Source: a bacterium (lineage in GTDB: Bacteria > Hydrothermota > Hydrothermia > UBA1063). Taken from it: 56,067 nt of DNA. This document shows positions 1-53,094 of this stretch, piece after piece (position 1 is the stretch's first letter; each line of letters begins with the position of its first letter). A program made the position numbers and the translations under genes. The notes beneath the pieces were generated by a model. That model saw only the letters and a program-made list of their open reading frames with translations. It made no database searches and had not been told where the DNA came from. The stretch spans positions 1-56,067 of the forward strand of contig JASEFR010000010.1 in NCBI GenBank assembly GCA_030019025.1, in the 5' to 3' direction.

Positions 1-36
1 CATGCCCTTGGTGTCAGTGAGGACGCCAAGGGCATG
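1..36 (-). terminator. GC-rich inverted repeat, candidate terminator closing the peptide-maturation cluster
   Basis: CATGCCCTTGG (1-11) is the exact reverse complement of CCAAGGGCATG (26-36). It lies 34 nt past the stop of the 70..195 ORF. Any U-tract would fall outside the window, so this is unverified. Confidence 0.3.
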
Positions 37-69
37 GAAAATCAAGTTATCAAACTAAATCTCTAAATT

Positions 70-195
70 CTATTTATTCTCAACCTTTTCTGGCTTCTCC
101 TTCTTGCACTTAACAAGGAAACACCCACAGTATTTTTTACTCCACGAACGTAATGTTTCCTTTATGTTTTCCTTTGTTTTGTTGATCCATTTCAT
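70..195 (-). CDS. Precursor-like peptide paralog C (41 aa): MKWINKTKENIKETLRSWSKKYCGCFLVKCKKEKPEKVENK
   Basis: Hand translation of the minus strand. ATG at 195..193 is preceded by GGGGGTG, which overlaps the TAG stop of the upstream gene; stop TAG at 72..70. It shares the MKxIN start and CGCFLxxC core with the ORFs at 5122..5226 and 5237..5350. Confidence 0.7.
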   Translation of the reverse strand: MKWINKTKENIKETLRSWSKKYCGCFLVKCKKEKPEKVENK

Positions 196-204
196 AAGCA
201 CCCC

Positions 205-2163
205 CTAAAATTCTAACTTTAACTTAACAGAGAAACTTCTGCTTGTCATTTCATAACTCCCTGTATCCTTTCTCCAGCCCGCATCACTCAGGAAAAGGAT
301 GGAGATACAATCAGTTAAATACAAGTACCCAACGTTCTTAAGGTAAAGGGCTTGAGTCTGGCCATCAGTGTTGTGCTCCACATAGGGTTTTATAACAAAT
401 CTATCCCTGACAATAGGGACCAGTCCAAAAAGCTGGAAGATTGAAGTTTTCTCCTCGCCATATCTCAAAATTTGGAAATTTACACCGGCATTGAAAAGGT
501 TGAGAGGAGAAATCTTGAGCTTTAAAGCCGCGTTATAACTATTTTCGCCAAGGTATTCACCCTTCATAAACGATAGTCCTACGTTGTTGTAGCTTGCCGG
601 GGCGTAAGAGAAGGCAATACCTAAAAAAGAGTAGTACCTGATGTCTTCTGGAAGGAAATCGAGATATGCCAATTCGTCTTTAACATAACTTAAACCCAAT
701 CCATAAGGACCTCTTGCACCACTTATTTCAAAATTTATATACCTTTCCACAAGGTCAGCACTTGAAAGGTCTCTCAATTCATCAAAATAAAACTGGGGTT
801 TGAAATAAGTAGCCTTTCCGAGGGGAATACCATATCCACAGTTAAAAGAATATTCTCTCACATTTTCGAAATATATAGGGCTAAAGGGCATCACAAAATT
901 TTCACCAATCTGTAAGAAAGAGGCCGATGCTTCGAGCCCCTTAAACTCACTTCTCCTATAAAACCTTACATAATACAAATTGGACTTTTCATCAAATCTA
1001 CGAGATATTTGAGATTGAAAGCCAAAACCTACTTTTGGAGCTATAACTCCACTGAAATCAAAGGATGCCAAGGAATAGGATGTCGGACTCCAGAGATAAA
1101 ATGTTCCTATATTAAACCCGTGTAAGGGTGCAAAGTTAATTTTGCCAAAGGAAAGGGTGTCGTAGCTTTCTTCCTTCGGTAAAAAAGCAATCCCACTCAG
1201 CTTTTCGGACTTGGTATAAAACTTTGCACCAAAGCTAATGTCTTCAAAAGCCCTCGTCCAGATTAGCTGATAGGGAAGAGAGTAAAGTTCTTTACCCTCC
1301 ATGAAGACTTCCCTTTTCTCGGGGTAATATATAGGCCTTCTTCTAAGGGAGATTTCCTTCACATCTGCTTCAATTTCAGAAAAGTCGGGTTTTACAACAA
1401 TATCAAGTACCGTTGAAGTTCCCTTCTTAAATCTGAAATTGCCTCCAAAGGATAAACGATTGAAGTATAATGTGTCTTGCTTTTGTGTCCATCCTCTCAC
1501 ATAAAAACTATTCCTCATTTGAAGGGTGCTTCTATAACTCTCTTCACTTTTTAAACCTTCAAAGCCAATATTTACCTTATGCATATGAGAAAGGGATTGG
1601 AATGAACCTTCAATATTTGAAAACTGAAACTGGCCAGCTCCCGCTATGAATCTCCCAAGTTTCACGCCCCATGGATTCCTTGTATAGGAAATTTCAGAAA
1701 GGGGAATTAAAATTAAGACGTCATAACCATAATCGGTTATCTCAGTCTTTGCCTGCCACCTACCATCCCATTCTTCTACGTTATCCCCGCCTTCCGAGAG
1801 AATAAAATCCCTTTTAGTGCCCAAAGGGTTCACCTGAAAACCGTAGGCAGTATTCCCATTACCTCCAGTATCCAGGAAGAGGAGAACGAAATCGTCTGCC
1901 ATGATGTCTTCCTGGTCATCCTTTTTAACCGTTGAAGATATCTTCGTTTTCTGGTAGTTTTTAAAGTATACTGCAAAGGTATTGCCCGATATGAGTCCAA
2001 TTCTAAAGAAGGTGGACTCTTCCGGGAAACTGTCAAGACTCGGATATACCTGGTAAAGCCTAAGGATGCTGTCGGGAAGAGATGCCTTTTTAAGGAACTC
2101 TTCCACACTCTCAGTATAGATAGGTTCTATTATGAGTTTGGCAATTAACAAAAGCAGCACCAT
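205..2163 (-). CDS. Outer-membrane protein, CBM9-like N-terminal domain plus DUF5916-type beta-rich region
   Basis: 652 aa ORF with SD AAGGAGG before the ATG and a hydrophobic N-terminus. The segment DDFVLLFLDTGGNGNTAYGFQVNPLGTKRD...WDGRWQAKT resembles the CBM9/DOMON-like module of the DUF5916 family. The remainder is rich in aromatic-ended beta strands. It starts 10 nt after the ABC gene. Confidence 0.55.
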   Translation of the reverse strand: MVLLLLIAKLIIEPIYTESVEEFLKKASLPDSILRLYQVYPSLDSFPEESTFFRIGLISGNTFAVYFKNYQKTKISSTVKKDDQEDIMADDFVLLFLDTGGNGNTAYGFQVNPLGTKRDFILSEGGDNVEEWDGRWQAKTEITDYGYDVLILIPLSEISYTRNPWGVKLGRFIAGAGQFQFSNIEGSFQSLSHMHKVNIGFEGLKSEESYRSTLQMRNSFYVRGWTQKQDTLYFNRLSFGGNFRFKKGTSTVLDIVVKPDFSEIEADVKEISLRRRPIYYPEKREVFMEGKELYSLPYQLIWTRAFEDISFGAKFYTKSEKLSGIAFLPKEESYDTLSFGKINFAPLHGFNIGTFYLWSPTSYSLASFDFSGVIAPKVGFGFQSQISRRFDEKSNLYYVRFYRRSEFKGLEASASFLQIGENFVMPFSPIYFENVREYSFNCGYGIPLGKATYFKPQFYFDELRDLSSADLVERYINFEISGARGPYGLGLSYVKDELAYLDFLPEDIRYYSFLGIAFSYAPASYNNVGLSFMKGEYLGENSYNAALKLKISPLNLFNAGVNFQILRYGEEKTSIFQLFGLVPIVRDRFVIKPYVEHNTDGQTQALYLKNVGYLYLTDCISILFLSDAGWRKDTGSYEMTSRSFSVKLKLEF

Positions 2164-2173
2164 AAAAACCTCC

Positions 2174-3790
2174 TTATTTTGAAGAATTGTGTCCCACTTC
2201 CGCTAAACATATTTTTTCAAAACCACCCAAATCTATTTCTGCTGACGGTAGGGCCACAATTAAACCCCTCCCTTTGGAATAATTCTCTATCAGATTCCAA
2301 TAAAACGCTTTTGAAACGTCATCAAGATTTGCGAGTGGTTCATCCAAAATTAGAAAATCACAGTTTTCCCGCGAAAGTGCGATTAGCAAAGAAAGTTTTT
2401 GCTTCTCACCTGCCGAGAGTTGAGTGAATTTAACATCGTCCCTCTCCTTAAATACATCTTTCTTAGCAATTTCTCTTAATTTTCCGTTAGAGATCAGTGT
2501 TAGATTATCTTTTAGCGTGGGTAAAAGTATAGGCGGGTAAAAGGAAACGGATAGCCTTTTAAAGTAAGTTTTCTTACTAACTTTTTCTAAAGGTAAGGTA
2601 CTATTGAGTTTAACGGTCCCCTCAGATGGATTAATCAGCCCTGTAATAACTTCAATTAATGTTGACTTTCCGGAACCATTCGGGCCAAGAATTACATATT
2701 TTTTACCCTTCACAAACTCAAAAGATAAATCCTCTATAACCCTGTTGTCTCCAAAGTCAACAGTAACATTCTCAAGACTGATGGCATTTATTGATCCCTC
2801 AATATTAACCTCACCTCCACCATTCGCCACGGCTTTAAACTCCTCAATTCTTCCGATAACGCCTGAAGTTGTCTGTATCTCAATGAAAATTTCAGATATG
2901 CTATCAATAGGGGATGAGATGTACCTCATAAGCTCCATAAAAGCCACCAGACCACCTACCGTTAAATTACCCCTTACTATCTCAATGGTACCAAAGAGAA
3001 AAACTCCTACAGGAAGAAAATCACTTAAAACCCCATAAATACCCGAATAAATACCGCTCACTTCCGCTCTTTTTAGCCTTATTCCCAAATAATCCCTTAA
3101 AGCATAGCCTAATATCGTTTTCACAGGTGACACCACTTGCAGTAAATTTACAATCTTAAAACTCTTTAAAACTTCTACAGCAACTTCCCCGAACCTTGCT
3201 TTAAACTCCTGAAATTTCAGAGAGTAATCTCTTATTCGATTCCCAAACAGCAAGTTTAGAAAGTAAAAACCCGTAGACAAGAAAAGTACAAATAAAGTAA
3301 GTTTCCAGGAAAGCCTCAGACAGACAATAAGGCCAAAGAAAAAGATCAAAAAGACCTTTATAACAAAGGTTACCGTAGTAGTTAAGCTCTCTTCAACTTC
3401 AGCTGGCTCATTGAAAACTCGTGAATAAAAATACCCCGAATCCTTCTCTTTAACCTTTTTAAAAGGTAGCTGATAATAAACATAAAGAAGCTCATCCACC
3501 AGCTTTTCATAAATTCCGTTTTTTAACTTCTGATCCACCACCTTGGAAAAGTAAAGGGTAACTTCTCTCAGAACAACAACTACCAAAATGATGAGAGAAT
3601 ACAAACCGAGAAGCGGAAGATCCTTTGCAGGAATAATTCGGTCAATGATCTCCTTGAAAATTAAAGGAACAGGCAATTGAAGAGCAGTGCCTAAAAGGAG
3701 TAAAATTAAGGACAGGGCGAATAAACTGCCTTGAAAAAGGGTGTATCTTTTAAAATACCCTATGAATAGCTTTAAATCACTTTGCCGCAA
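2174..3790 (-). CDS. ABC exporter, fused permease plus ATPase, with no peptidase domain
   Basis: 538 aa with an N-terminal multi-TM region. Walker A is GPNGSGKST, the signature-like motif is LSAGEKQK and Walker B is FLILDEP. It overlaps the radical SAM gene by 14 nt. I could not find a canonical Q-loop Gln or H-loop His. Confidence 0.85.
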   Translation of the reverse strand: MRQSDLKLFIGYFKRYTLFQGSLFALSLILLLLGTALQLPVPLIFKEIIDRIIPAKDLPLLGLYSLIILVVVVLREVTLYFSKVVDQKLKNGIYEKLVDELLYVYYQLPFKKVKEKDSGYFYSRVFNEPAEVEESLTTTVTFVIKVFLIFFFGLIVCLRLSWKLTLFVLFLSTGFYFLNLLFGNRIRDYSLKFQEFKARFGEVAVEVLKSFKIVNLLQVVSPVKTILGYALRDYLGIRLKRAEVSGIYSGIYGVLSDFLPVGVFLFGTIEIVRGNLTVGGLVAFMELMRYISSPIDSISEIFIEIQTTSGVIGRIEEFKAVANGGGEVNIEGSINAISLENVTVDFGDNRVIEDLSFEFVKGKKYVILGPNGSGKSTLIEVITGLINPSEGTVKLNSTLPLEKVSKKTYFKRLSVSFYPPILLPTLKDNLTLISNGKLREIAKKDVFKERDDVKFTQLSAGEKQKLSLLIALSRENCDFLILDEPLANLDDVSKAFYWNLIENYSKGRGLIVALPSAEIDLGGFEKICLAEVGHNSSK

Positions 3791-5075
3791 AACTGTGCTC
3801 CTTTAAATCGTAAATAGTTTTTAACGATAACTCAAGGCTGTATCTCCAAATTTCACAACGATTTTTTCCAGTTTTTAATTTGTAAAGAGGACATCCTCCT
3901 CCACATACAGGGAGATACTTACAGTTATAACACTCCTTGTCGAGTATCTTTAAGTTTTCCCACTTAAGAACACTTCTTGCGTCCTCTCTGTAATTATCCA
4001 CATACCCTATTGATTCCCTATCTCTCCCCACGAGGTCAAAGCACTTTTTAATGCTTCCATCCGCGTCTATCAAATAGTGAAAAGGTGTAATACCAGCACA
4101 AAAGACATAGGAAAGTTCAGGATAAACCTCATAGGGAAAGCCGTACTTGTAAAGTAGAGGCACGATCTTCTCAGCGTAAACTTTACCGTATTCTTCGTCT
4201 CCAAAAAGATTCTCGCCAAAGTCAATTTTGTCCTTTTCACCCGTAACTGGTGAAAAGTAGACCTCCAAGTTATTTTTTTTAATCTTAGCAAAAATTTTCA
4301 AAAGGTCCTCAATATGCTCTATGTTTTCCTTATCAACATTAACGCGTATCCTGATAACAAATTCAGGAAAAGTTTCAATAACCCTTTCCACATTTTCAAA
4401 GATCTTTTCAAAAGTACCACCCTTATTTTTCAGAAATCGCCTTTTATTATGAATTTCAGGGGGTCCATCAAGAGTTATCTGGGCAGATTTCAAAGAGGTC
4501 TTTTCGATCAACTCTCCTGCGGTCTCTATGTCAAAGAGATAACCATTGGTGACAATATCGGACGAAAATTTAAATCCCATTTTTTCAGCCAGCTCTTTAA
4601 AGAATTGGCCAAATTCAAAAAGCACATCTTTACACAGTAAGGGCTCACCACCGTAAAAGGAGAGGGAAACATCTTCAGGTTTAAAAGCATCTACTTTTTC
4701 CCTAATAAAATCTAAGACCTTCCCCTTAGTTCCCTCAGAAAGCTTCACGTTCTTAATCCCCGATTCAAAACAATAATAGCAGCCAAAATTACAACCCGTT
4801 GTGGGAACAATGGTAAAAAGAAGCTTCCGAGAATAATATCTGCTCATAAAGAAATTTCTTAAATAATAGCCCTTTTCATCGAATCTGTTCTCAACGATGA
4901 ATCCCGCATCAACAAATTCTTGCAGGATTTTCTCATCGTTAATTTCTGGAAACTTCCTGTAAAACTCTTCGTACCGCTTATCCAGTAAAACAAAATTCTT
5001 CGTTAAGATGTTATACAGCAAAAGCCCATCTTCGTGTTCAATTTCAATATTATAAAAATTTTTGTGAAATCCCAT
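3777..5075 (-). CDS. Radical SAM/SPASM-domain peptide maturase
   Basis: 432 aa. The CxxxCxxC motif sits in TTGCNFGCYYCFE. The C-terminal SPASM pattern reads FCAG...DGSIKKC...CYNCKYLPVCGGGC...RC. An N-terminal extension of about 90 aa precedes the SAM cluster, where RRE/PqqD-like leader-binding domains normally sit. Confidence 0.9.
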   Translation of the reverse strand: MGFHKNFYNIEIEHEDGLLLYNILTKNFVLLDKRYEEFYRKFPEINDEKILQEFVDAGFIVENRFDEKGYYLRNFFMSRYYSRKLLFTIVPTTGCNFGCYYCFESGIKNVKLSEGTKGKVLDFIREKVDAFKPEDVSLSFYGGEPLLCKDVLFEFGQFFKELAEKMGFKFSSDIVTNGYLFDIETAGELIEKTSLKSAQITLDGPPEIHNKRRFLKNKGGTFEKIFENVERVIETFPEFVIRIRVNVDKENIEHIEDLLKIFAKIKKNNLEVYFSPVTGEKDKIDFGENLFGDEEYGKVYAEKIVPLLYKYGFPYEVYPELSYVFCAGITPFHYLIDADGSIKKCFDLVGRDRESIGYVDNYREDARSVLKWENLKILDKECYNCKYLPVCGGGCPLYKLKTGKNRCEIWRYSLELSLKTIYDLKEHSFAAK

Positions 5076-5080
5076 TTCAA

Positions 5081-5106
5081 CCTCCCTTTTTAGACCGGAA
5101 GGGAGG
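5081..5106 (-). promoter_or_regulatory. Hairpin that sequesters the maturase Shine-Dalgarno, located between pepA and the radical SAM gene
   Basis: The mRNA-sense sequence is CCTCCCTTCCGGTCTAAAAAGGGAGG. CCTCCCTT pairs with AAGGGAGG over 8 bp with a 10-nt loop. The 3-prime arm is the SD, 5 nt before ATG 5075. Confidence 0.5.
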
Positions 5107-5121
5107 TGGGTTTTTTAATTT

Positions 5122-5226
5122 TTACACCTGGTCCTTCCTACAAATTGTTAAAAAGCAACCACAAATAGGTGGCAATATAGATGGTAAATTCACTTTCTGG
5201 CTATTATTAATATTAATTGCCTTCAT
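5122..5226 (-). CDS. Precursor-like peptide paralog A (34 aa): MKAININNSQKVNLPSILPPICGCFLTICRKDQV
   Basis: Hand translation. SD GGAGGTG lies 6 nt upstream of ATG 5226..5224; stop TAA at 5124..5122. It sits 46 nt upstream of the maturase start. Confidence 0.75.
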   Translation of the reverse strand: MKAININNSQKVNLPSILPPICGCFLTICRKDQV

Positions 5227-5236
5227 TCTTCACCTC

Positions 5237-5350
5237 CTACTTTTGTTCGCTGTCCCTCGGTGCCCTCTGATCACACCTTGTCAGAAAGCATCCACATAGA
5301 AAATCTATAATGCCTTTTTGTGGTGCATTCTCTCTGTTTATGTATCTCAT
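5237..5350 (-). CDS. Precursor-like peptide paralog B (37 aa): MRYINRENAPQKGIIDFLCGCFLTRCDQRAPRDSEQK
   Basis: This is the internal Met35 of the 71-aa track ORF 5237..5452. It is preceded by GGAAGGAGG-N5-ATG, whereas the upstream ATG at 5452 has no SD. The TAG stop overlaps the SD of pepA. Confidence 0.75.
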   Translation of the reverse strand: MRYINRENAPQKGIIDFLCGCFLTRCDQRAPRDSEQK

Positions 5351-5376
5351 TTTTACCTCCTTCCGTTTTTGGCTAC

Positions 5377-5388
5377 CCTCCCTTCCGG
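5377..5388 (-). repeat. 12-nt element CCGGAAGGGAGG (mRNA sense), perfectly complementary to 5095..5106
   Basis: The plus strand reads CCTCCCTTCCGG at 5377-5388 and CCGGAAGGGAGG at 5095-5106. On the transcript the two elements flank pepB-pepA. Confidence 0.6.
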
Positions 5389-5417
5389 CATACTTTTTAA
5401 TAAGCAAAAAGTATGCC
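5387..5417 (-). promoter_or_regulatory. 12-bp perfect hairpin in the 5-prime leader of pepB
   Basis: GGCATACTTTTT (5387-5398) and AAAAAGTATGCC (5406-5417) are exact reverse complements with a 7-nt loop. No U-tract follows on the sense strand. Confidence 0.4.
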
Positions 5418-5440
5418 AAAAGAGAGTCAGGATGTAAGTT

Positions 5441-5446
5441 ATTGTA
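5441..5446 (-). promoter_or_regulatory. Candidate -10 box TACAAT for the precursor/maturase operon
   Basis: The minus strand reads GAGTTACAATAAC. Only a weak -35 (TTCCAT-like) is present. The large palindrome lies immediately upstream. Confidence 0.3.
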
Positions 5447-5473
5447 ACTCATAAAAATGAGAAAATGGAAATA

Positions 5474-5509
5474 TTCCTAAAGTGCGAAAAACTTTTCGCA
5501 CTTTAGGAA
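5474..5509. promoter_or_regulatory. 36-bp perfect palindrome (17-bp arms, 2-nt centre); candidate operator or second terminator
   Basis: TTCCTAAAGTGCGAAAA-AC-TTTTCGCACTTTAGGAA, checked base by base. Confidence 0.5.
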
Positions 5510-5584
5510 AGTAGATTTAAGATCCTGAAACTCTCAAACTTAGAGTGTGAAAAAAGATTCAGTAAAAACCTCGAACTTTCACAT

Positions 5585-5615
5585 AAAAAAAATGGGGCGA
5601 CCGTATGGTCACCCC
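5585..5615 (-). terminator. Rho-independent terminator of the peroxiredoxin gene
   Basis: The minus-sense sequence is GGGGUGACC-AUAC-GGUCGCCCC followed by A and eight U residues. It lies 25 nt after the stop at 5640. Confidence 0.75.
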
Positions 5616-5639
5616 ATCAGAAAGGCAACCCTCAAAATC

Positions 5640-6275
5640 TTATATTTTCTTGTGGCAGAACCACCAATCGTAGCAGGTATATTCCTTTGGTCTTTTCTCA
5701 GCGGTTTCAACATCATTGGCCGGTGGCACAATAACCTCACTGCCTATAAGCTCGTTATTTGGCCAGTTCGCTGGCAATGCCACTTTATGCTGGTCAGTAA
5801 CTTGCAGACCTTTAACCATTCTGAGTATCTCGTCCATGTTCCTTCCAAGCTCCTGCGGATAATAGAGCACTGCCCTAAGAATGCTTTCAGGGTCAATTAT
5901 AAACACTGCTCTAACAGTGTTTGTGCCTTTTGAAGGATGAATCATGCCGAGTAGTTCTGCAATCTGACCTCTATCATCTGCGATTACAGGGAATTTTATT
6001 TCTATACCAAGTTTTTCCTTTATCCATTCAATCCACTTAATATGGGAGAAAACCTGATCAATAGAAAGGCCAATGAGCTCGGTGTTCAACTTTTTGAACT
6101 CGTCATACCTCTTCTGGAAAGCAACGAATTCGGTTGTGCACACAGGCGTGAAATCAGCAGGATGACTGAACAGTACTACCCACTTACCCTTGTAGTCTTC
6201 GGGAAACTTGATCATCCCATGGGTTGTTTTTGCTGTAAATGCAGGTATTTTTTCACCTAATAGTGGCAGTCCCAT
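5640..6275 (-). CDS. Peroxiredoxin (1-Cys/Prx6-like)
   Basis: 211 aa with the motif [24 protein letters not shown] precedes the ATG. Confidence 0.9.
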
Positions 6276-6317
6276 TTTTAACCCCCTTGTTTTAAATTTA
6301 ATCTTGTAATCATTTTA

Positions 6318-6346
6318 ATTTTATATATTATAGCGCGTTTTGTCAA
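6318..6346 (-). promoter_or_regulatory. Sigma70-type promoter of the peroxiredoxin gene
   Basis: The minus strand carries TTGACA (6346-6341), a 17-nt spacer and TAAAAT (6323-6318). A leader of about 40 nt with an SD follows. Confidence 0.55.
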
Positions 6347-6542
6347 GAGGGTACTTTACACCGCACAATTTTTTCAGAACCAACAATTCAACAAGAACAA
6401 GCAGGCAAATCTTGCATCTGAACTACCAAAAAATTTCCCCTTGGTATATAGAATTTTCAACTCTACTTAACTGCAAAAAGTAGCCGTTGCCGAGTTAAAT
6501 TGTGAATTTTCGCACGCTTTGCCCTATAATAATATACTATCT

Positions 6543-6615
6543 GGGGATGTAGCTCAGCTGGGAGAGCATCGGCTTTGCAAGCCGGGGGTCAGGGGTTCGA
6601 ATCCCCTCATCTCCA
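6543..6615 (+). tRNA. tRNA-Ala (anticodon UGC); CCA not encoded
   Basis: The cloverleaf folds by hand. The acceptor stem GGGGATG/CATCTCC includes the G3:U70 Ala identity pair. The anticodon loop is TTTGCAA and the T-arm is AGGGG-TTCGAAT-CCCCT. TATAAT at 6525-6530 lies 12 nt upstream. Confidence 0.95.
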
Positions 6616-50470: not shown

Positions 50471-51670
50471 ATGGCTATAAAAATTACTATAAGTGTCTTA
50501 AGTAGCTACATTTTAGGCTCAATTTTACCTGCCTATTTCCTTGGCAAACTCCTTAAAGGAATTGATATCCGTGAGGTGGGAGATAAGAACGCAGGGACAA
50601 TAAATGCCTATAAAACACTCGGTCCTATTCCTGCACTCTTTACAGCCATTTTCGATCTTTCAAAGGGAATGTTGTCCGCATGGATCGCCCACCTGGTGGG
50701 AATAGAGTATCCCCTAAATATTCTCATCTCCTTCGCTGCTGTTCTCGGGCATGTGTTTCCCTTCTACCTTAAATTTAGAGGGGGGCAGGGGGAAGCAACC
50801 GCAACTGGCATAATTTTGTATTTTCTTCTTAGAACTCTATTTACAAAGCCCGATTTTCTTACTGCATTTCTTATTCTGGTTTTTTATTCACTAATTTTAT
50901 TATACATCATCGGGCCTTCAAGGATACTGGGATTATACATCCTGCCGGCAGTCTTTCTATTAGTAGCAGTCCATTTATCGACTCTTGAATGGATAATAAT
51001 GTTGGTATTCGTTGCCTACACTTTCTCCGTTAGTCTCAGCAACCGGATCAAAAGCGGATACAAACTAAGTGAACAAACAAGAAAGACAATCAAATGGTCA
51101 AGATTTGTGGCAAGACCTTTCGCTATTTTGTATATAATCATCTACTTCCAGACTTCAAAGGGCTTTATTCTAAAACTAACCGGCACTGTAGCCCTCGCTT
51201 TCCTAATCTTTGATCTTGTGAGACTTTCTAAAGCAGGCATCAATCGGGCTATAATGAAAACCCTAAGTTTTGCCTTTAAAAGTAAAGAAGAAAAAACCTT
51301 CTCCAGCATGACCCACTTCACTGTAGCATCCTTTTTAAGCTACTTGCTGTTTCCGGGAAAAATTGCCTCCTGCTCAATCCTCTACCCAGTCTTTGGTGAT
51401 ATGTTTGCCAAACTCATGGGGCTTGAATACGGACGAAGGCGATTCTTTGAAAAAACCCTGGAAGGTTTCTTAGCCTATACAACCTTTGGGATAATCGCAG
51501 GATATATATACTCAAAACTGGCAAACTACCCATTTCCTCTTACCATCATAGGTGCTTTAGTAGGAGCTATATCTGAGATATTGCCATGGAAATTAGACGA
51601 CAACCTGAGTGGTTCACTTTTCTCAGGACTTGCAATGTTCTATGTTGGTAAATTATTAAACTGGGTGTAA
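50471..51670 (+). CDS. Fusion protein: PlsY acyl-phosphate:glycerol-3-phosphate acyltransferase plus a C-terminal CTP-dependent polyprenol/DAG-kinase-like (CdsA/dolichol kinase superfamily) domain
   Basis: 399 aa. The N-terminal part of about 200 aa carries PlsY motifs GSILPAYFLGK..GIDIREVGDKNAGTINA and GHVFPFYLKFRGGQG. The C-terminal part of about 190 aa carries VFGDMFAKLMGLEYGRRRFFEKTLEG. Confidence 0.75.
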   Translation: MAIKITISVLSSYILGSILPAYFLGKLLKGIDIREVGDKNAGTINAYKTLGPIPALFTAIFDLSKGMLSAWIAHLVGIEYPLNILISFAAVLGHVFPFYLKFRGGQGEATATGIILYFLLRTLFTKPDFLTAFLILVFYSLILLYIIGPSRILGLYILPAVFLLVAVHLSTLEWIIMLVFVAYTFSVSLSNRIKSGYKLSEQTRKTIKWSRFVARPFAILYIIIYFQTSKGFILKLTGTVALAFLIFDLVRLSKAGINRAIMKTLSFAFKSKEEKTFSSMTHFTVASFLSYLLFPGKIASCSILYPVFGDMFAKLMGLEYGRRRFFEKTLEGFLAYTTFGIIAGYIYSKLANYPFPLTIIGALVGAISEILPWKLDDNLSGSLFSGLAMFYVGKLLNWV

Positions 51671-51690
51671 AATTAGAAAAAGGAGGGGAT

Positions 51691-53094
51691 ATGTCCAAAA
51701 AAATTTACCAAATAGTTTTTGCAGTTGCTTCTTTTCTTTTCTTCCAAAAAGGTATCAGTGCCCAGGAATTTCCTATCGCAGTGGGTAGTGATACGACTTT
51801 TTCTGGAGGAGCGGTTTACGGTGATAACAACGGCCTGGTAGCTATTTACGGTGATTCTGAAAGCCCGTACAGTATCAATGCACAGCTGATTGCCTATCCT
51901 GGAGATCTAATAGGCCCAAGAATTTCCTTAGGTGATACAGGAGTTTTCCCGGGCGCGATACCAATCTTTGATGGGACCAATTACTTCCTGATGTGGTGCG
52001 ACTTCTATGGAACTCTTAAAGGAGAATTCATTGATACGAACGGAAATCTGGTTGGTTCTCCAATCACCATCGCCACCGACTTAGACCCAAACGGCCGAAA
52101 TAGTATTGCTATGGGCGATACGGTTTTTCTGGCAGTTTTCGTTAAAAATGACGGCTATCTCTATGGACAAATGTTAAGCAGTAGTGGTGATCTGATTGGG
52201 TCCCAAATACAAATTAGCAATAACTATGCACGTGAAAATGCCACTGCATTTGATGGCAACAATTTTCTCGTAGTCTGGGTTGATGACAATAATGACAAAG
52301 ACATCTATGGGCAGTTTGTAAGTAAAACAGGCTCACTTGTGGGGGGCAATTTTGTCATTGACAACGGCCCATACTACAGCGATAACCCTGTCTCCCTTGC
52401 CTTTGATGGTACAAGGTACCTGCTGGCATTTCATGAAACTCTTAGTGACGTGGGTTTCCCAAAATGGACTTTGCTTGGCAGATTCATAACCACTTCTGGA
52501 ACCCTCGAGGATACATTTACTATTTGTGATACAACTAAAATGCCGTTTCTACCCTATGTTGCCTTTGATGGTACTAATTATTTAATAACCTGGACACAAT
52601 TTTCCGATTCAAATATGGTAGGAAGATTCTATAACACCTTCGGTGAACCTATTGACACACCTTTTGTTATCTTTGCTCCTTTAAACAACAAAATACCTGT
52701 GGGAGGAGTCGGCTTTGGAGGCGGGAATTATCTTGTGATAGCTACTCGTGTAAATTCCGACCTCACCGACGGTGACGTCTATGGCAGATTCATCAGCCCT
52801 GTAAGTATAAGAGACGAAAATAGTTTAAACATAAAACCGAAACTTTTCCCGAATTATCCAAATCCTTTCAGCAGATATACTAATATTCAATACGAGTTAC
52901 CAAAATCAACTTACGTTACCCTACGAATCTATAATATGCTCGGCCAGGAAGTTGCTACTTTAGTCAGAGGAGTATTACCTGCCGGAAAGCATACCATACG
53001 CTGGAATTCTGCTGATTTACCCGAGGGTATATACTTCTGCAATTTAGAGACCACAAGCTCTGTTGAGACGAAAAAGCTAATTCTGCTAAAGTGA
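51691..53094 (+). CDS. Secreted repeat protein (seven modules of about 50 aa, propeller-like) with a T9SS C-terminal sorting domain
   Basis: 467 aa with a signal peptide. The recurring module is FDG(T/N)NYL..W......(I/V)YG(Q/R)F(I/V)...G.L(I/V)G. The C-terminus NYPNPFSRYTNIQYEL...LRIYNMLGQEV...GIYFCNL matches the Por secretion tail. Confidence 0.8.
   Translation: MSKKIYQIVFAVASFLFFQKGISAQEFPIAVGSDTTFSGGAVYGDNNGLVAIYGDSESPYSINAQLIAYPGDLIGPRISLGDTGVFPGAIPIFDGTNYFLMWCDFYGTLKGEFIDTNGNLVGSPITIATDLDPNGRNSIAMGDTVFLAVFVKNDGYLYGQMLSSSGDLIGSQIQISNNYARENATAFDGNNFLVVWVDDNNDKDIYGQFVSKTGSLVGGNFVIDNGPYYSDNPVSLAFDGTRYLLAFHETLSDVGFPKWTLLGRFITTSGTLEDTFTICDTTKMPFLPYVAFDGTNYLITWTQFSDSNMVGRFYNTFGEPIDTPFVIFAPLNNKIPVGGVGFGGGNYLVIATRVNSDLTDGDVYGRFISPVSIRDENSLNIKPKLFPNYPNPFSRYTNIQYELPKSTYVTLRIYNMLGQEVATLVRGVLPAGKHTIRWNSADLPEGIYFCNLETTSSVETKKLILLK

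What the first reader, a model, noticed from the sequence alone, without database searches (positions are those of the whole stretch)
1..5509. RiPP-like cluster: radical SAM/SPASM maturase, peptidase-less ABC exporter and DUF5916-type outer-membrane protein, bracketed by precursors
The minus-strand order is: 36-bp palindrome, candidate -10, pepB, pepA, radical SAM/SPASM enzyme, ABC exporter, CBM9/DUF5916-like outer-membrane protein, pepC, terminal hairpin. The maturase has CxxxCxxC, a full seven-Cys SPASM pattern and an N-terminal extension of about 90 aa where leader-recognition domains normally sit. The ABC exporter overlaps the maturase gene by 14 nt, the outer-membrane protein starts 10 nt later, and pepC has its ATG 9 nt after the outer-membrane protein stop with its SD touching that stop. 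This spacing implies one transcription/translation unit. There is no leader peptidase, no C39 domain on the transporter, no membrane-fusion protein and no TolC-like gene. The transporter NBD keeps Walker A, Walker B and an LSAGE signature, but I cannot find a canonical Q-loop Gln or H-loop His. A DUF5916-family outer-membrane protein, whose function is unknown, is tightly coupled between the exporter and a third precursor. This suggests a diderm-specific route for export or surface display of a Cys-crosslinked peptide. Thioether (sactionine or ranthionine) chemistry is the obvious guess for a SPASM enzyme acting on a three-Cys core.
Basis: partly seen in the sequence, partly recalled or inferred. 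Interest (0 to 1): 0.85.

Follow-up and report, generated by a model that had tools for sequence, protein, structure and literature searches.

The report
Peptide-crosslinking operon with its own outer-membrane barrel
An uncultured hot-spring-type bacterium (candidate division WOR-3) carries a conserved six-gene operon that makes small cysteine-rich peptides, probably crosslinks and exports them, and links them to a dedicated outer-membrane barrel from a large protein family of unknown function.

Summary
On the minus strand of 1-5509 lie pepB (5237-5350), pepA (5122-5226), a radical SAM/SPASM maturase, a peptidase-less ABC exporter, a 652-aa outer-membrane barrel and pepC (70-195).

The order maturase, ABC, barrel, small peptide recurs in about 11 independent lineages. 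These have 36-91% maturase identity and different flanking genes.

Twenty-two peptides share an M-K/R-x-I-N start and an invariant C-x-C-F-hydrophobic-(V/T)-x-C core. They match no Pfam or NCBIfam model.

The maturase models confidently. It is most like the thioether-forming CteB and has a leader-binding-type N-terminal domain, but it reaches no named subfamily cut-off.

The barrel is a full-length, divergent member of the CBM9/DUF5916 family (hhalign 99.96%). Only this small branch travels with radical SAM and ABC genes.

The peptide downstream of the barrel gene is the universal one. The upstream peptides number 0 to 3.

The crosslink chemistry, the export step and the barrel's role are inferred, not shown. 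I call it a new variant of a known kind (radical-SAM RiPP cluster) and rate interest as moderate to high.

The parts
1..36 (-). Hairpin after pepC at the contig end; probable 3' end of the operon
   Evidence: Inverted repeat with 15-nt arms, 93% complementary. The 91% relative L098 has a hairpin of different sequence at the same relative place. No T-run can be seen because the contig ends here.
70..195 (-). pepC, 41 aa: MKWINK leader, CGCFLVKC core, lysine-rich tail. This is the universally conserved precursor type.
   Evidence: ATG 9 nt after the barrel gene's stop, with SD GGGGGTG. Homologous peptides follow the barrel gene in every complete locus. Synonymous differences exceed non-synonymous ones, 16-20 against 7 codons.
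205..2163 (-). Outer-membrane protein, 652 aa: N-terminal CBM9-like beta-sandwich plus a barrel of about 24 strands. Divergent DUF5916 subfamily.
   Evidence: AF2 pLDDT 88.8, pTM 0.86. Foldseek matches only large OM barrels such as LptD, ushers and TonB-dependent transporters. C-terminal Phe. hhalign to canonical CBM9/DUF5916 gives 99.96%, E 7e-39, 603 columns. Pfam DUF5916 is sub-threshold at 20.8 bits.
2174..3790 (-). ABC half-transporter, 538 aa: six-helix exporter domain plus nucleotide-binding domain, no peptidase domain, deviant Q and H loops
   Evidence: Pfam ABC_membrane 103 bits and ABC_tran 80 bits. Matches to peptidase-containing exporter models start at profile position about 149. 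Closest solved sequence is BmrA, E 2e-32, with Q-loop Gln replaced by Phe. H-loop His replaced by Pro.
3777..5075 (-). Radical SAM/SPASM peptide maturase, 432 aa, with RRE-like N-terminal domain (residues about 3-80)
   Evidence: Pfam Radical_SAM; SPASM TIGR04085 48.9 bits against a cut-off of 27. AF2 pLDDT 93.4 with a strand-strand-strand / helix-helix-helix N-terminus. Best fold match is CteB 5wgg, TM 0.72 over 462 columns.
5080..5107 (-). Intercistronic hairpin pairing CCUCCC with the maturase Shine-Dalgarno GGGAGG
   Evidence: Folds at -16.1 kcal/mol. In L098, L095, L001 and L006 the minimum-energy fold shows the same anti-SD/SD pairing between the last upstream precursor gene and the maturase gene. 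In L092 complementary arms (GCGCCU/AGGCGC) are present but the minimum-energy fold does not pair them (z -0.05). Also listed by the terminator scan.
5122..5226 (-). pepA, 34 aa: MKAIN leader, LPPI-CGCFLTIC core
   Evidence: SD AGGAGGTG conserved in the close relatives. Orthologous peptides in L098, L095, L001, L092 and L006.
5237..5350 (-). pepB, 37 aa: MRYIN leader, CGCFLTRC core, CD(Q/E)R tail
   Evidence: SD GGAGG conserved in the close relatives. Orthologous peptides in L098, L095, L001, L092, L006 and L097.
5382..5422 (-). Imperfect hairpin in the 5' leader region upstream of pepB
   Evidence: 17-nt arms, 88% complementary. Equivalent repeats in L098 and L092.
5441..5446 (-). Candidate -10 hexamer TACAAT
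   Evidence: Read from the sequence. Lies in the ATTACAATAACTTACA block conserved in L098 and L095. The simple promoter scan did not call it.
5474..5509 (.). 36-bp perfect palindrome containing the dyad TGCGA-N8-TCGCA; operator-like site or RNA hairpin
   Evidence: Perfect 17-nt arms. The only TGYGA-N8-TCRCA site in the window, with 0.08 expected. The same dyad lies upstream of pepB in L098, L095 and L092, with a two-sided change to TGTGA/TCACA.
5591..5618 (-). Intrinsic terminator of the upstream peroxiredoxin gene; marks the 5' boundary of the unit
   Evidence: 12-pair stem with 7 GC pairs, then a T8 run.

Best explanation
This is a self-contained operon of candidate division WOR-3 / Hydrothermia-type diderm bacteria. 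It makes small, radical-SAM-modified, cysteine-rich peptides and delivers them to the cell envelope.

1. Precursors. pepB, pepA and pepC are paralogous precursors. Each has a short leader of 17-24 residues starting M-K/R-x-I-N, then an invariant core C-x-C-F-hydrophobic-(V/T)-x-C.
2. Modification (inferred). The CteB-like radical SAM/SPASM enzyme binds the leader with its RRE-like N-terminal domain and crosslinks the core in the cytoplasm. The most likely product is Cys-sulfur-to-side-chain thioethers of the ranthipeptide type.
3. Inner membrane (inferred). The peptidase-less ABC half-transporter moves the modified peptide, probably still carrying its leader, across the inner membrane.
4. Outer membrane (inferred). 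The barrel gene is tightly coupled to the ABC gene on one side and to pepC on the other. The CBM9-like/DUF5916 barrel is the outer-membrane partner, acting as a conduit or as a docking site for the peptide.
5. Regulation (inferred). Expression is probably controlled at a conserved dyad upstream. An SD-sequestering hairpin keeps maturase translation below precursor translation.

Shown here: the gene content, the conservation and coupling of the genes, the protein folds and the peptide motifs. Inferred: the crosslink chemistry, the direction of transport and the barrel's role.
For: Architecture.
- Maturase, ABC, barrel and a CxC peptide occur in the same order in the window, L098, L095, L001/2, L092, L003-5/L093, L097, L006-8/L094, L102, L089/90 and L101. 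In L103 the maturase and ABC genes are followed by an unidentified ORF cut off by the contig end.
- These loci have different flanking genes.
- Gene junctions overlap or lie 10 nt or less apart.

Peptides.
- In 22 sequences C1, C3, F4 and C8 are invariant. Position 6 is always V or T. The start is M-K/R-x-I-N in 21 of 22.
- Shine-Dalgarno sequences are kept, and synonymous codon differences exceed non-synonymous ones against the closest relative.

Maturase.
- The best NCBIfam models are all RiPP maturases: TIGR04463, Clo7bot, CefB, FlmE/OhkG, geopeptide and PapB.
- The seven-Cys SPASM pattern is invariant.
- The AF2 model matches CteB over its full length, including the N-terminal domain.
- CteB-type enzymes make Cys-Thr gamma-thioethers (PMC10352776).

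ABC exporter. It has an exporter-type membrane domain and no C39 domain.

Barrel. The model is confident, the protein ends in Phe, and it is a full-length DUF5916 homolog.

Host. The window also encodes OmpA-family, SurA-like and T9SS-sorted proteins, so the host is diderm.

Precedent. QhpD (radical SAM thioether enzyme) works with QhpF, a peptidase-less efflux ABC transporter that exports the crosslinked QhpC (PMC7876137).
Against: - No modification, transcript or transport has been observed.
- The maturase is below the curated cut-off of every named subfamily (best 250 against 525 bits), so the chemistry cannot be transferred by membership.
- In the window's lineage the ABC nucleotide-binding domain lacks both the Q-loop Gln and the H-loop His. 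This questions normal ATPase activity if the protein works as a homodimer.
- The barrel's N-terminal signal sequence is atypical: short, hydrophobic and without a basic n-region.
- There is no periplasmic adaptor, and no cleavage motif or protease for the leader.
- A more distant barrel relative (P0130, 29% identity) has no adjacent radical SAM or ABC gene, although a scaffold gap lies upstream.
Confidence: 0.72

Rival explanations
1. The peptides, above all the universally conserved pepC type, are not released products. They are crosslinked partner subunits, plugs or lids of the barrel, matured in the cytoplasm and exported to assemble with it. This would resemble QhpC joining its periplasmic enzyme, or LptE/LptM joining LptD.
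For: - pepC is translationally coupled to the barrel gene in every lineage.
- It is the only precursor in two lineages, L003/L093 and L102.
- It carries a lysine-rich tail with 10-16 K+R.
- In the sister systems L089 and L101 the downstream peptide starts MKWLKK-AVAALLSF-NGC/SGC-SS, which looks like a lipoprotein signal peptide. That would place it at the outer membrane.
- The nearest folds, LptD and the ushers, are barrels that hold a partner or plug.
- QhpC is a precedent (PMC7876137).
Against: - pepA and pepB share the same leader and core but lack the basic tail and are not coupled to the barrel gene.
- No complex prediction could be run.
- The lipobox-like reading is by eye only.
- Canonical DUF5916 proteins have no such peptide nearby.
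Confidence: 0.25
2. The barrel is an uptake receptor or an immunity element for the exported peptide (signal, bacteriocin or metal-binding peptide), not an export conduit.
For: - Large plugged barrels with N-terminal domains are typically importers; TonB-dependent transporters are among the fold hits.
- A parallel cluster in L103 pairs radical SAM and ABC genes and Cys-rich peptides with a TonB-dependent-receptor-like barrel.
- Three invariant cysteines could bind metal if they are not all crosslinked.
Against: - No TonB box or plug domain was identified.
- There is no periplasmic binding protein or importer in the cluster.
- Tight coupling of the barrel gene to a precursor gene is not typical of receptor genes.
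Confidence: 0.12
3. The maturase performs another radical chemistry on the core, such as a carbon-carbon cyclophane on the invariant Phe (F-x-V/T, as in three-residue cyclophane enzymes) or epimerisation. The cysteines would then form disulfides or bind metal.
For: - Phe at core position 4 is invariant, and the residue two positions later is always V or T.
- The maturase reaches no thioether subfamily cut-off.
- SPASM enzymes perform many chemistries, and the fold hits include SuiB and the epimerase EpeE.
Against: - The highest-scoring models are all maturases of Cys-rich peptides. The cyclophane model YhhB scores only 64 bits.
- The best structural match is the thioether-forming CteB.
- Three cysteines are invariant.
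Confidence: 0.2
4. This is not a peptide system at all. The small ORFs are chance, and the radical SAM enzyme acts on a protein or small molecule, for example as an anaerobic sulfatase maturase.
For: By sequence, the closest solved structure is the sulfatase maturase anSME (E 2e-12).
Against: - The peptides are conserved across lineages and keep their Shine-Dalgarno sequences, and pepB and pepC show synonymous-biased substitution.
- anSME models score 62-73 bits against cut-offs of 349-441.
- No sulfatase gene is adjacent.
- anSME lacks the N-terminal domain; its alignment starts at residue 91.
Confidence: 0.02

Closest known systems
CteB / SCIFF-type and PapB-type ranthipeptide systems (radical SAM/SPASM thioether RiPPs)
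   Same: - RRE-like N-terminal domain, radical SAM core and seven-Cys SPASM domain.
- Best fold match is CteB, TM 0.72.
- Short Cys-rich precursors next to the enzyme gene.
- The core has a V/T five residues after C1. From my memory, this is the spacing of the Cys-Thr link that CteB makes.
   Different: - Below the cut-off of every named maturase model.
- The precursor family is new, with no Pfam or NCBIfam match.
- The host is diderm.
- There is a dedicated ABC exporter and an outer-membrane barrel.
- One precursor gene is placed after the barrel gene.
Quinohemoprotein amine dehydrogenase maturation (QhpC/QhpD/QhpF)
   Same: A radical SAM/SPASM enzyme makes three Cys thioethers in a small polypeptide. 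A peptidase-less efflux ABC transporter then exports it to join a larger envelope protein (PMC7876137).
   Different: - The QhpD model scores 77.5 against a cut-off of 453.
- There are no QhpA/B dehydrogenase subunits, no QhpE protease and no QhpG.
- The partner here is an outer-membrane barrel, not a periplasmic enzyme.
CBM9 + DUF5916 outer-membrane proteins (PF06452 + PF19313)
   Same: Full-length homology (hhalign 99.96%, 603 columns). The PDFSxxEAD and PEKRxFFxEG motifs are shared. Both have an N-terminal beta-sandwich and a large barrel.
   Different: - This branch is shorter (about 650 against 700-780 aa) and mostly below the Pfam threshold.
- It is small, with about 25 representative clusters against thousands.
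- In this sample only this branch sat with radical SAM, ABC and peptide genes; two canonical members checked did not.
- The family has no published function.
Gram-negative peptide export by type I systems (for example colicin V CvaAB-TolC)
   Same: A dedicated ABC exporter is encoded next to the peptide gene in a diderm, and an outer-membrane component is needed (PMC10352776 for the ColV description).
   Different: There is no C39 peptidase domain, no double-glycine leader, no membrane-fusion protein and no TolC-type trimeric channel. The outer-membrane component is a monomer-type beta-barrel of another family.
LptD-LptE(-LptM) and usher-type large barrels
   Same: An N-terminal beta-sandwich followed by a barrel of about 24-26 strands. 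These are the top Foldseek hits. A small partner is encoded or assembled with the barrel.
   Different: TM-scores are only about 0.3 and sequence identity 8-10%, so this is an analogy of architecture and not a family relationship.

Membership tests
Radical SAM/SPASM peptide maturases | CxxxCxxC radical SAM cluster motif | tested here: met
   C95-x3-C99-x2-C102, invariant in 68 homologs. Pfam Radical_SAM 71.5 bits.
Radical SAM/SPASM peptide maturases | SPASM domain with seven cysteines for two auxiliary clusters | tested here: met
   TIGR04085 scores 48.9 bits against a cut-off of 27. C326, C345, C382, C385, C391, C395 and C407 are invariant.
Radical SAM/SPASM peptide maturases | N-terminal RiPP recognition element (PqqD-like winged helix) | tested here: inconclusive
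   The AF2 model shows strands then helices at residues 3-80, and the alignment with CteB is full-length. There is no Pfam PqqD hit. The segment matches only the N-termini of other RiPP maturase models.
Named maturase subfamilies (TIGR04463, Clo7bot, CefB, FlmE/OhkG, geopeptide, PapB, SCIFF) | Score above the curated NCBIfam cut-off | tested here: not met
   Scores against cut-offs: 250/525, 238/600, 216/600, 180/500, 156/400, 119/340, 65/425 bits.
Ranthipeptides / sactipeptides | Cys sulfur-to-carbon thioether in the mature peptide | not testable with these tools
   Needs mass spectrometry and NMR of the modified peptide.
Anaerobic sulfatase maturase | Score above cut-off and an adjacent sulfatase gene | tested here: not met
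   72.6 against 349 and 62.3 against 441 bits. No sulfatase in the window cluster or in any related locus.
Peptidase-containing ABC transporters (PCAT, bacteriocin exporters) | N-terminal C39 peptidase domain | tested here: not met
   The protein starts at the membrane domain. Matches to PCAT models begin at profile positions 149-162. No peptidase Pfam hit.
ABC exporters (ABC_membrane + ABC_tran) | Exporter membrane domain, Walker A, Walker B and signature motif | tested here: met
   PF00664 102.8 bits and PF00005 79.6 bits. GPNGSGKS, LSAGE and ILDEP are present.
ABC exporters (ABC_membrane + ABC_tran) | Canonical Q-loop Gln and H-loop His | tested here: not met
   The Q-loop position is Phe/Tyr in the window, L001, L003 and L092. 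The H-loop is Pro in the window, L001 and L092, but His in L003, L006 and L089.
DUF5916 (PF19313) with CBM9 (PF06452) | Pfam gathering score | tested here: not met
   PF19313 scores 20.8 against 22.6 bits. 8 of 11 clade members hit at E<0.01. There is no PF06452 hit.
DUF5916 (PF19313) with CBM9 (PF06452) | Full-length homology to family members | tested here: met
   hhalign probability 99.96%, E 7e-39, columns 31-657 against 61-722. phmmer reaches E 1e-20 to CBM9+DUF5916 proteins. The mixed profile hits CBM9 structure 1i82 at E 3.7e-4.
Outer-membrane beta-barrel proteins | Closed beta-barrel, C-terminal aromatic residue, signal peptide | tested here: inconclusive
   About 24 strands at high confidence. 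The protein ends in Phe. Fold hits are all OM barrels. The N-terminal signal is atypical, and no signal-peptide predictor was available.
Type I secretion system | ABC exporter plus membrane-fusion protein plus TolC-type channel | tested here: not met
   No MFP or OEP gene lies inside the unit in any locus.
Quinohemoprotein amine dehydrogenase system | QhpD equivalog and QhpA/QhpB genes | tested here: not met
   TIGR03906 scores 77.5 against 453 bits. No dehydrogenase subunits are nearby.

The most novel reading that the evidence does not exclude
The radical-SAM-matured peptide is a built-in component of an outer-membrane machine. Under this reading pepC-type peptides are crosslinked in the cytoplasm, exported by the ABC protein, and then become a stoichiometric plug, lid or anchor of the DUF5916 barrel. 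A RiPP pathway would then be maturing an envelope protein subunit rather than a secreted natural product. This would give the first functional handle on the large, uncharacterised DUF5916 family.
Probability: 0.25. Interest if true: 0.8.

Novelty: new variant of a known kind. Interest (0 to 1): 0.6.

Why it matters
Radical SAM/SPASM peptide clusters are common, but three features stand out here.

- **A new precursor family.** The M-K-x-I-N start and C-x-C-F-x-(V/T)-x-C core are sharply conserved and match no curated model.
- **A dedicated outer-membrane barrel.** It is fused into the operon with no adaptor and no TolC. One precursor gene is translationally coupled to it. How modified peptides cross or reach the outer membrane of diderm bacteria is poorly understood outside TolC-dependent systems.
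- **A context for DUF5916.** Thousands of representative clusters match the family, and no paper in the searched library names it. This branch offers the first gene-context clue to what the family does.

The system comes from an uncultured, probably thermophilic phylum. Its parts are small enough for heterologous testing.

Tried and rejected
- **Genome scan.** It returned only generic radical SAM/SPASM genes at 26-33% identity, so it said nothing about the neighbourhood. A clade-specific DNA motif (YVFC[AG]G[IV]TP[FY]H) scanned on metagenomes worked instead.
- **Peptide homolog search.** A search with pepC found only itself and one relative, because such small ORFs are rarely called.
- **Literature.** Searches for DUF5916, PF19313 and the TIGR/NF model numbers found nothing. 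A search on OhkG, FlmE and CefB returned unrelated papers.
- **Rfam.** Nothing in 1-6600 reached a gathering score except the neighbouring tRNA.
- **PqqD.** No Pfam hit for the maturase N-terminus.
- **Sulfatase maturase reading.** Rejected.
- **Type I secretion and PCAT readings.** Rejected: no MFP, TolC or C39.
- **Palindrome as the peroxiredoxin terminator.** Rejected, because that gene has its own strong terminator at 5591-5618. Whether the palindrome acts as a DNA operator or as an RNA hairpin is unresolved. The two-sided changes in relatives fit both.
- **71-aa form of pepB.** Rejected in favour of the 37-aa form with the conserved SD.
- **Other ORFs matching the relaxed C[GAS]C-aromatic/aliphatic search pattern elsewhere in the window** (for example 51660-51788). 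These are unrelated chance matches; none contains CGCF.

Full report
**1. What is in the sequence**

- A strong intrinsic terminator at 5591-5618 ends the upstream peroxiredoxin gene.
- A perfect 36-bp palindrome follows at 5474-5509.
- A candidate -10 (TACAAT) lies at 5441-5446, and an imperfect hairpin at 5382-5422.
- The genes then run: pepB (5237-5350, 37 aa), pepA (5122-5226, 34 aa), a radical SAM/SPASM enzyme (3777-5075, 432 aa), an ABC exporter (2174-3790, 538 aa), a 652-aa protein (205-2163) and pepC (70-195, 41 aa).
- A hairpin at 1-36 sits at the contig end.

The junctions are as described. The maturase and ABC genes overlap by 14 nt. A 10-nt gap separates the ABC and barrel genes. 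Nine nucleotides (GGGGGTGCT T) lie between the barrel gene's stop and the pepC ATG.

One correction: the 71-aa ORF from 5452 is an artefact. pepB starts at the ATG at 5350, behind a conserved GGAGG.

**2. The small ORFs are real genes**

- CGCFL occurs in the six-frame translation of the whole 56-kb window only in these three ORFs.
- Comparisons with the 91% and 80% relatives (L098, L095) show that all three keep their Shine-Dalgarno sequences.
- In pepC, 16-20 codons differ synonymously from these relatives and 7 non-synonymously.
- In pepB, synonymous differences also lead in both comparisons. In pepA they lead only against the 91% relative.
- I collected 22 such peptides from nine lineages.
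  - Core positions C1, C3, F4 and C8 are invariant. Position 2 is usually Gly, position 5 is hydrophobic and position 6 is always Val or Thr.
  - The N-terminus is M-K/R-x-I-N in 21 of 22.
  - The segment before the core is 17-24 residues long.
- None matches a Pfam or NCBIfam model.
- Three types keep their positions.
  - The pepB type is the first upstream peptide and has a C-D-E/Q-R tail.
  - The pepA type is the second upstream peptide, with LPPI before the core.
  - The pepC type lies downstream of the barrel gene, starts MKWINK and has a lysine-rich tail.

**3. The genes travel together**

The closest maturase relatives form a tight clade at 50-90% identity. Two sister sequences sit at 36-39%, and then there is a drop to generic enzymes at about 33%.

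| Lineage | Loci | Upstream peptides |
|---|---|---|
| Window | window | 2 |
| 91% relative | L098 | 2 |
| 80% relative | L095 | 2 |
| WOR-3 genome | L001/L002 | 2 |
| Candidatus Hydrothermia | L092 | 2 |
| Caldiserica-labelled | L006-8/L094 | 2 |
| L097 lineage | L097/L096 | 1 |
| L003 lineage | L003-5/L093 | 0 |
| L102 lineage | L102 | 0 |
| Sister system (39%) | L089/L090 | 3 |
| Sister system (36%) | L101 | not resolved |

- Every locus with enough sequence has maturase, then ABC, then a protein of about 650 aa, then a small CxC peptide.
- In L103 the maturase and ABC genes are followed by an ORF cut off by the contig end, which I did not identify.
- The flanking genes differ between lineages: Trx-Dxr-Prx, an iron ABC importer, Mrp antiporter genes, DprA and an RND pump. 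The unit therefore moves as a block.
- The downstream peptide is present in all complete loci.
- L089/L090 is a second system in the same genomes as L003/L004. Its cores read CxCxGxGxC and its leaders start M-x-W-I/M-K.
- L101 has two radical SAM plus ABC pairs before the barrel gene.

**4. The maturase**

- It has the CxxxCxxC motif and a seven-Cys SPASM pattern, invariant across 68 homologs.
- Its best NCBIfam models are all maturases of Cys-rich peptides: TIGR04463 at 250 bits, then Clo7bot, CefB, FlmE/OhkG, geopeptide and PapB. None reaches its curated cut-off, so it belongs to no named subfamily.
- The AF2 model is confident (pLDDT 93.4). Residues 3-80 form strands followed by helices, as in leader-recognition domains.
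- The best solved-structure match is CteB (5wgg, TM 0.72 over 462 columns), ahead of the sulfatase maturase.
- The N-terminal 90 residues match only the N-termini of other RiPP maturase models.
- CteB-type enzymes form Cys-Thr gamma-thioethers (PMC10352776).
- The invariant V/T lies five residues after C1. From my memory this is the spacing of the CteB product, so a C1-to-V/T6 thioether is a concrete guess. It is untested.

**5. The ABC protein**

- It is an exporter-type half-transporter with no peptidase domain. BmrA is the closest solved sequence.
  - The Q-loop Gln is replaced by an aromatic residue in most of the clade.
  - The H-loop His is Pro in the window, L001 and L092, but His in L003, L006 and L089.
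- A homodimer would have two deviant ATP sites, which is unusual and unexplained.

**6. The 652-aa protein**

- AF2 gives a confident model (pLDDT 88.8, pTM 0.86). It has an N-terminal beta-sandwich and then about 24 long strands. The protein ends in Phe.
- Foldseek finds only large outer-membrane barrels (LptD, PapC/FimD ushers, TonB-dependent transporters, MtrB) at low TM-scores. It is a barrel without a close solved relative.
- Pfam DUF5916 is just below threshold.
- A profile-profile comparison of the clade with canonical CBM9+DUF5916 proteins gives 99.96% probability over 603 columns.
- A full-library search found about 25 representative clusters that match over most or all of the length. 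Thousands of canonical family members match mainly the N-terminal third.
- Two canonical members checked have no radical SAM or ABC neighbours. One distant relative (P0130) also lacks them, though a scaffold gap lies upstream.
- The window also encodes OmpA-family, SurA-like and T9SS-sorted proteins, so the host has an outer membrane.
- The maturase's 90%-identity cluster carries UniRef names from candidate division WOR-3.

**7. Regulatory features**

- The palindrome holds the only TGYGA-N8-TCRCA dyad in the window, with 0.08 expected by chance.
- The same dyad lies upstream of pepB in L098, L095 and L092, with a two-sided change to TGTGA/TCACA.
- Its centre lies about 45-50 nt upstream of the candidate -10 hexamer, so an operator is plausible. 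An RNA hairpin cannot be excluded.
- Between pepA and the maturase gene, a CCUCCC element pairs with the maturase SD in the window.
  - The minimum-energy folds of L098, L095, L001 and L006 show the same pairing. L092 has complementary arms, but its predicted fold does not pair them.
  - The z-scores are modest.
  - This would hold maturase translation below precursor translation.

**8. Mechanism and rivals**

- *Best explanation (0.72).* The leader is recognised and the core crosslinked in the cytoplasm. The ABC protein exports the product, and the DUF5916 barrel serves as the outer-membrane partner.
- *Main rival (0.25).* The pepC-type peptide is a stoichiometric partner of the barrel rather than a released product. 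This fits its universal presence, its coupling to the barrel gene, its basic tail and the lipoprotein-signal-like start of the downstream peptides in L089 and L101. It also fits the QhpC/QhpD/QhpF precedent (PMC7876137).
- *Other readings not excluded.* A receptor or immunity role for the barrel, and a non-thioether chemistry centred on the invariant Phe.
- *Effectively excluded.* A non-peptide role for the enzyme.

**9. Verdict**

This is a new variant of a known kind: a radical SAM/SPASM RiPP cluster with a new precursor family and a dedicated barrel from an uncharacterised family. Interest is 0.6. The architecture is unusual and testable, but chemistry and function remain inferred, and automated RiPP miners would already flag the maturase.

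Noticed in passing
L103:530-5083: Next to a clade maturase cluster lies a parallel unit: a Cys-rich peptide, a radical SAM fragment, an ABC exporter, a second peptide, then a TonB-dependent-receptor-like barrel (CarboxypepD_reg + OMP_b-brl_3). Both peptides end in CFLKYS. Radical SAM + ABC + outer-membrane barrel triads may be a recurring theme in these bacteria.
   Followed up: partly
L089:12929-13111 and L101:8296-8454: In the sister systems the peptide after the barrel gene starts MKWLKK-AVAALLSF-NGC-SS or VKWLKK-VAAAILSF-SGC-SS. This looks like a lipoprotein signal peptide with a lipobox, and a CxC...C core follows. I judged this by eye only.
   Followed up: partly
L001:13989-16857: The WOR-3 genome GCA_039803465.1 has a second, unrelated radical SAM/SPASM gene and an ABC exporter with canonical Q and H loops. 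They lie 1 kb downstream of the cluster, with no barrel gene and no obvious peptide.
   Followed up: partly
window:5640-8235, L001:5732-7356, L092:2728-4355: The cluster sits in a conserved Trx-like / Dxr / peroxiredoxin neighbourhood, but its position differs. It lies after the peroxiredoxin gene in the window and between Dxr and the peroxiredoxin gene in L001 and L092. This suggests insertion or rearrangement at this spot.
   Followed up: no
window:2174-3790: The H-loop His-to-Pro change in the ABC protein is confined to the window/L001/L092 sub-lineage. Loss of the Q-loop Gln is wider. A homodimer would carry two deviant ATP sites, and I have no explanation for this.
   Followed up: partly
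window:205-2163 (residues 1-14): The barrel protein starts with a short hydrophobic stretch that has no basic n-region. A conserved I-x-P follows, which the model places in a strand. The signal peptide is atypical across the whole clade.
   Followed up: no
window:6542-6616: A tRNA-Ala (TGC) on the plus strand abuts the 3' end of the minus-strand Dxr gene.
   Followed up: no
window:16328-19597 and 51691-53094: A 1089-aa right-handed beta-helix/NosD-like protein and a 467-aa protein with a T9SS C-terminal sorting domain. Both point to a surface-protein repertoire of the Fibrobacteres-Chlorobi-Bacteroidetes type.
   Followed up: no
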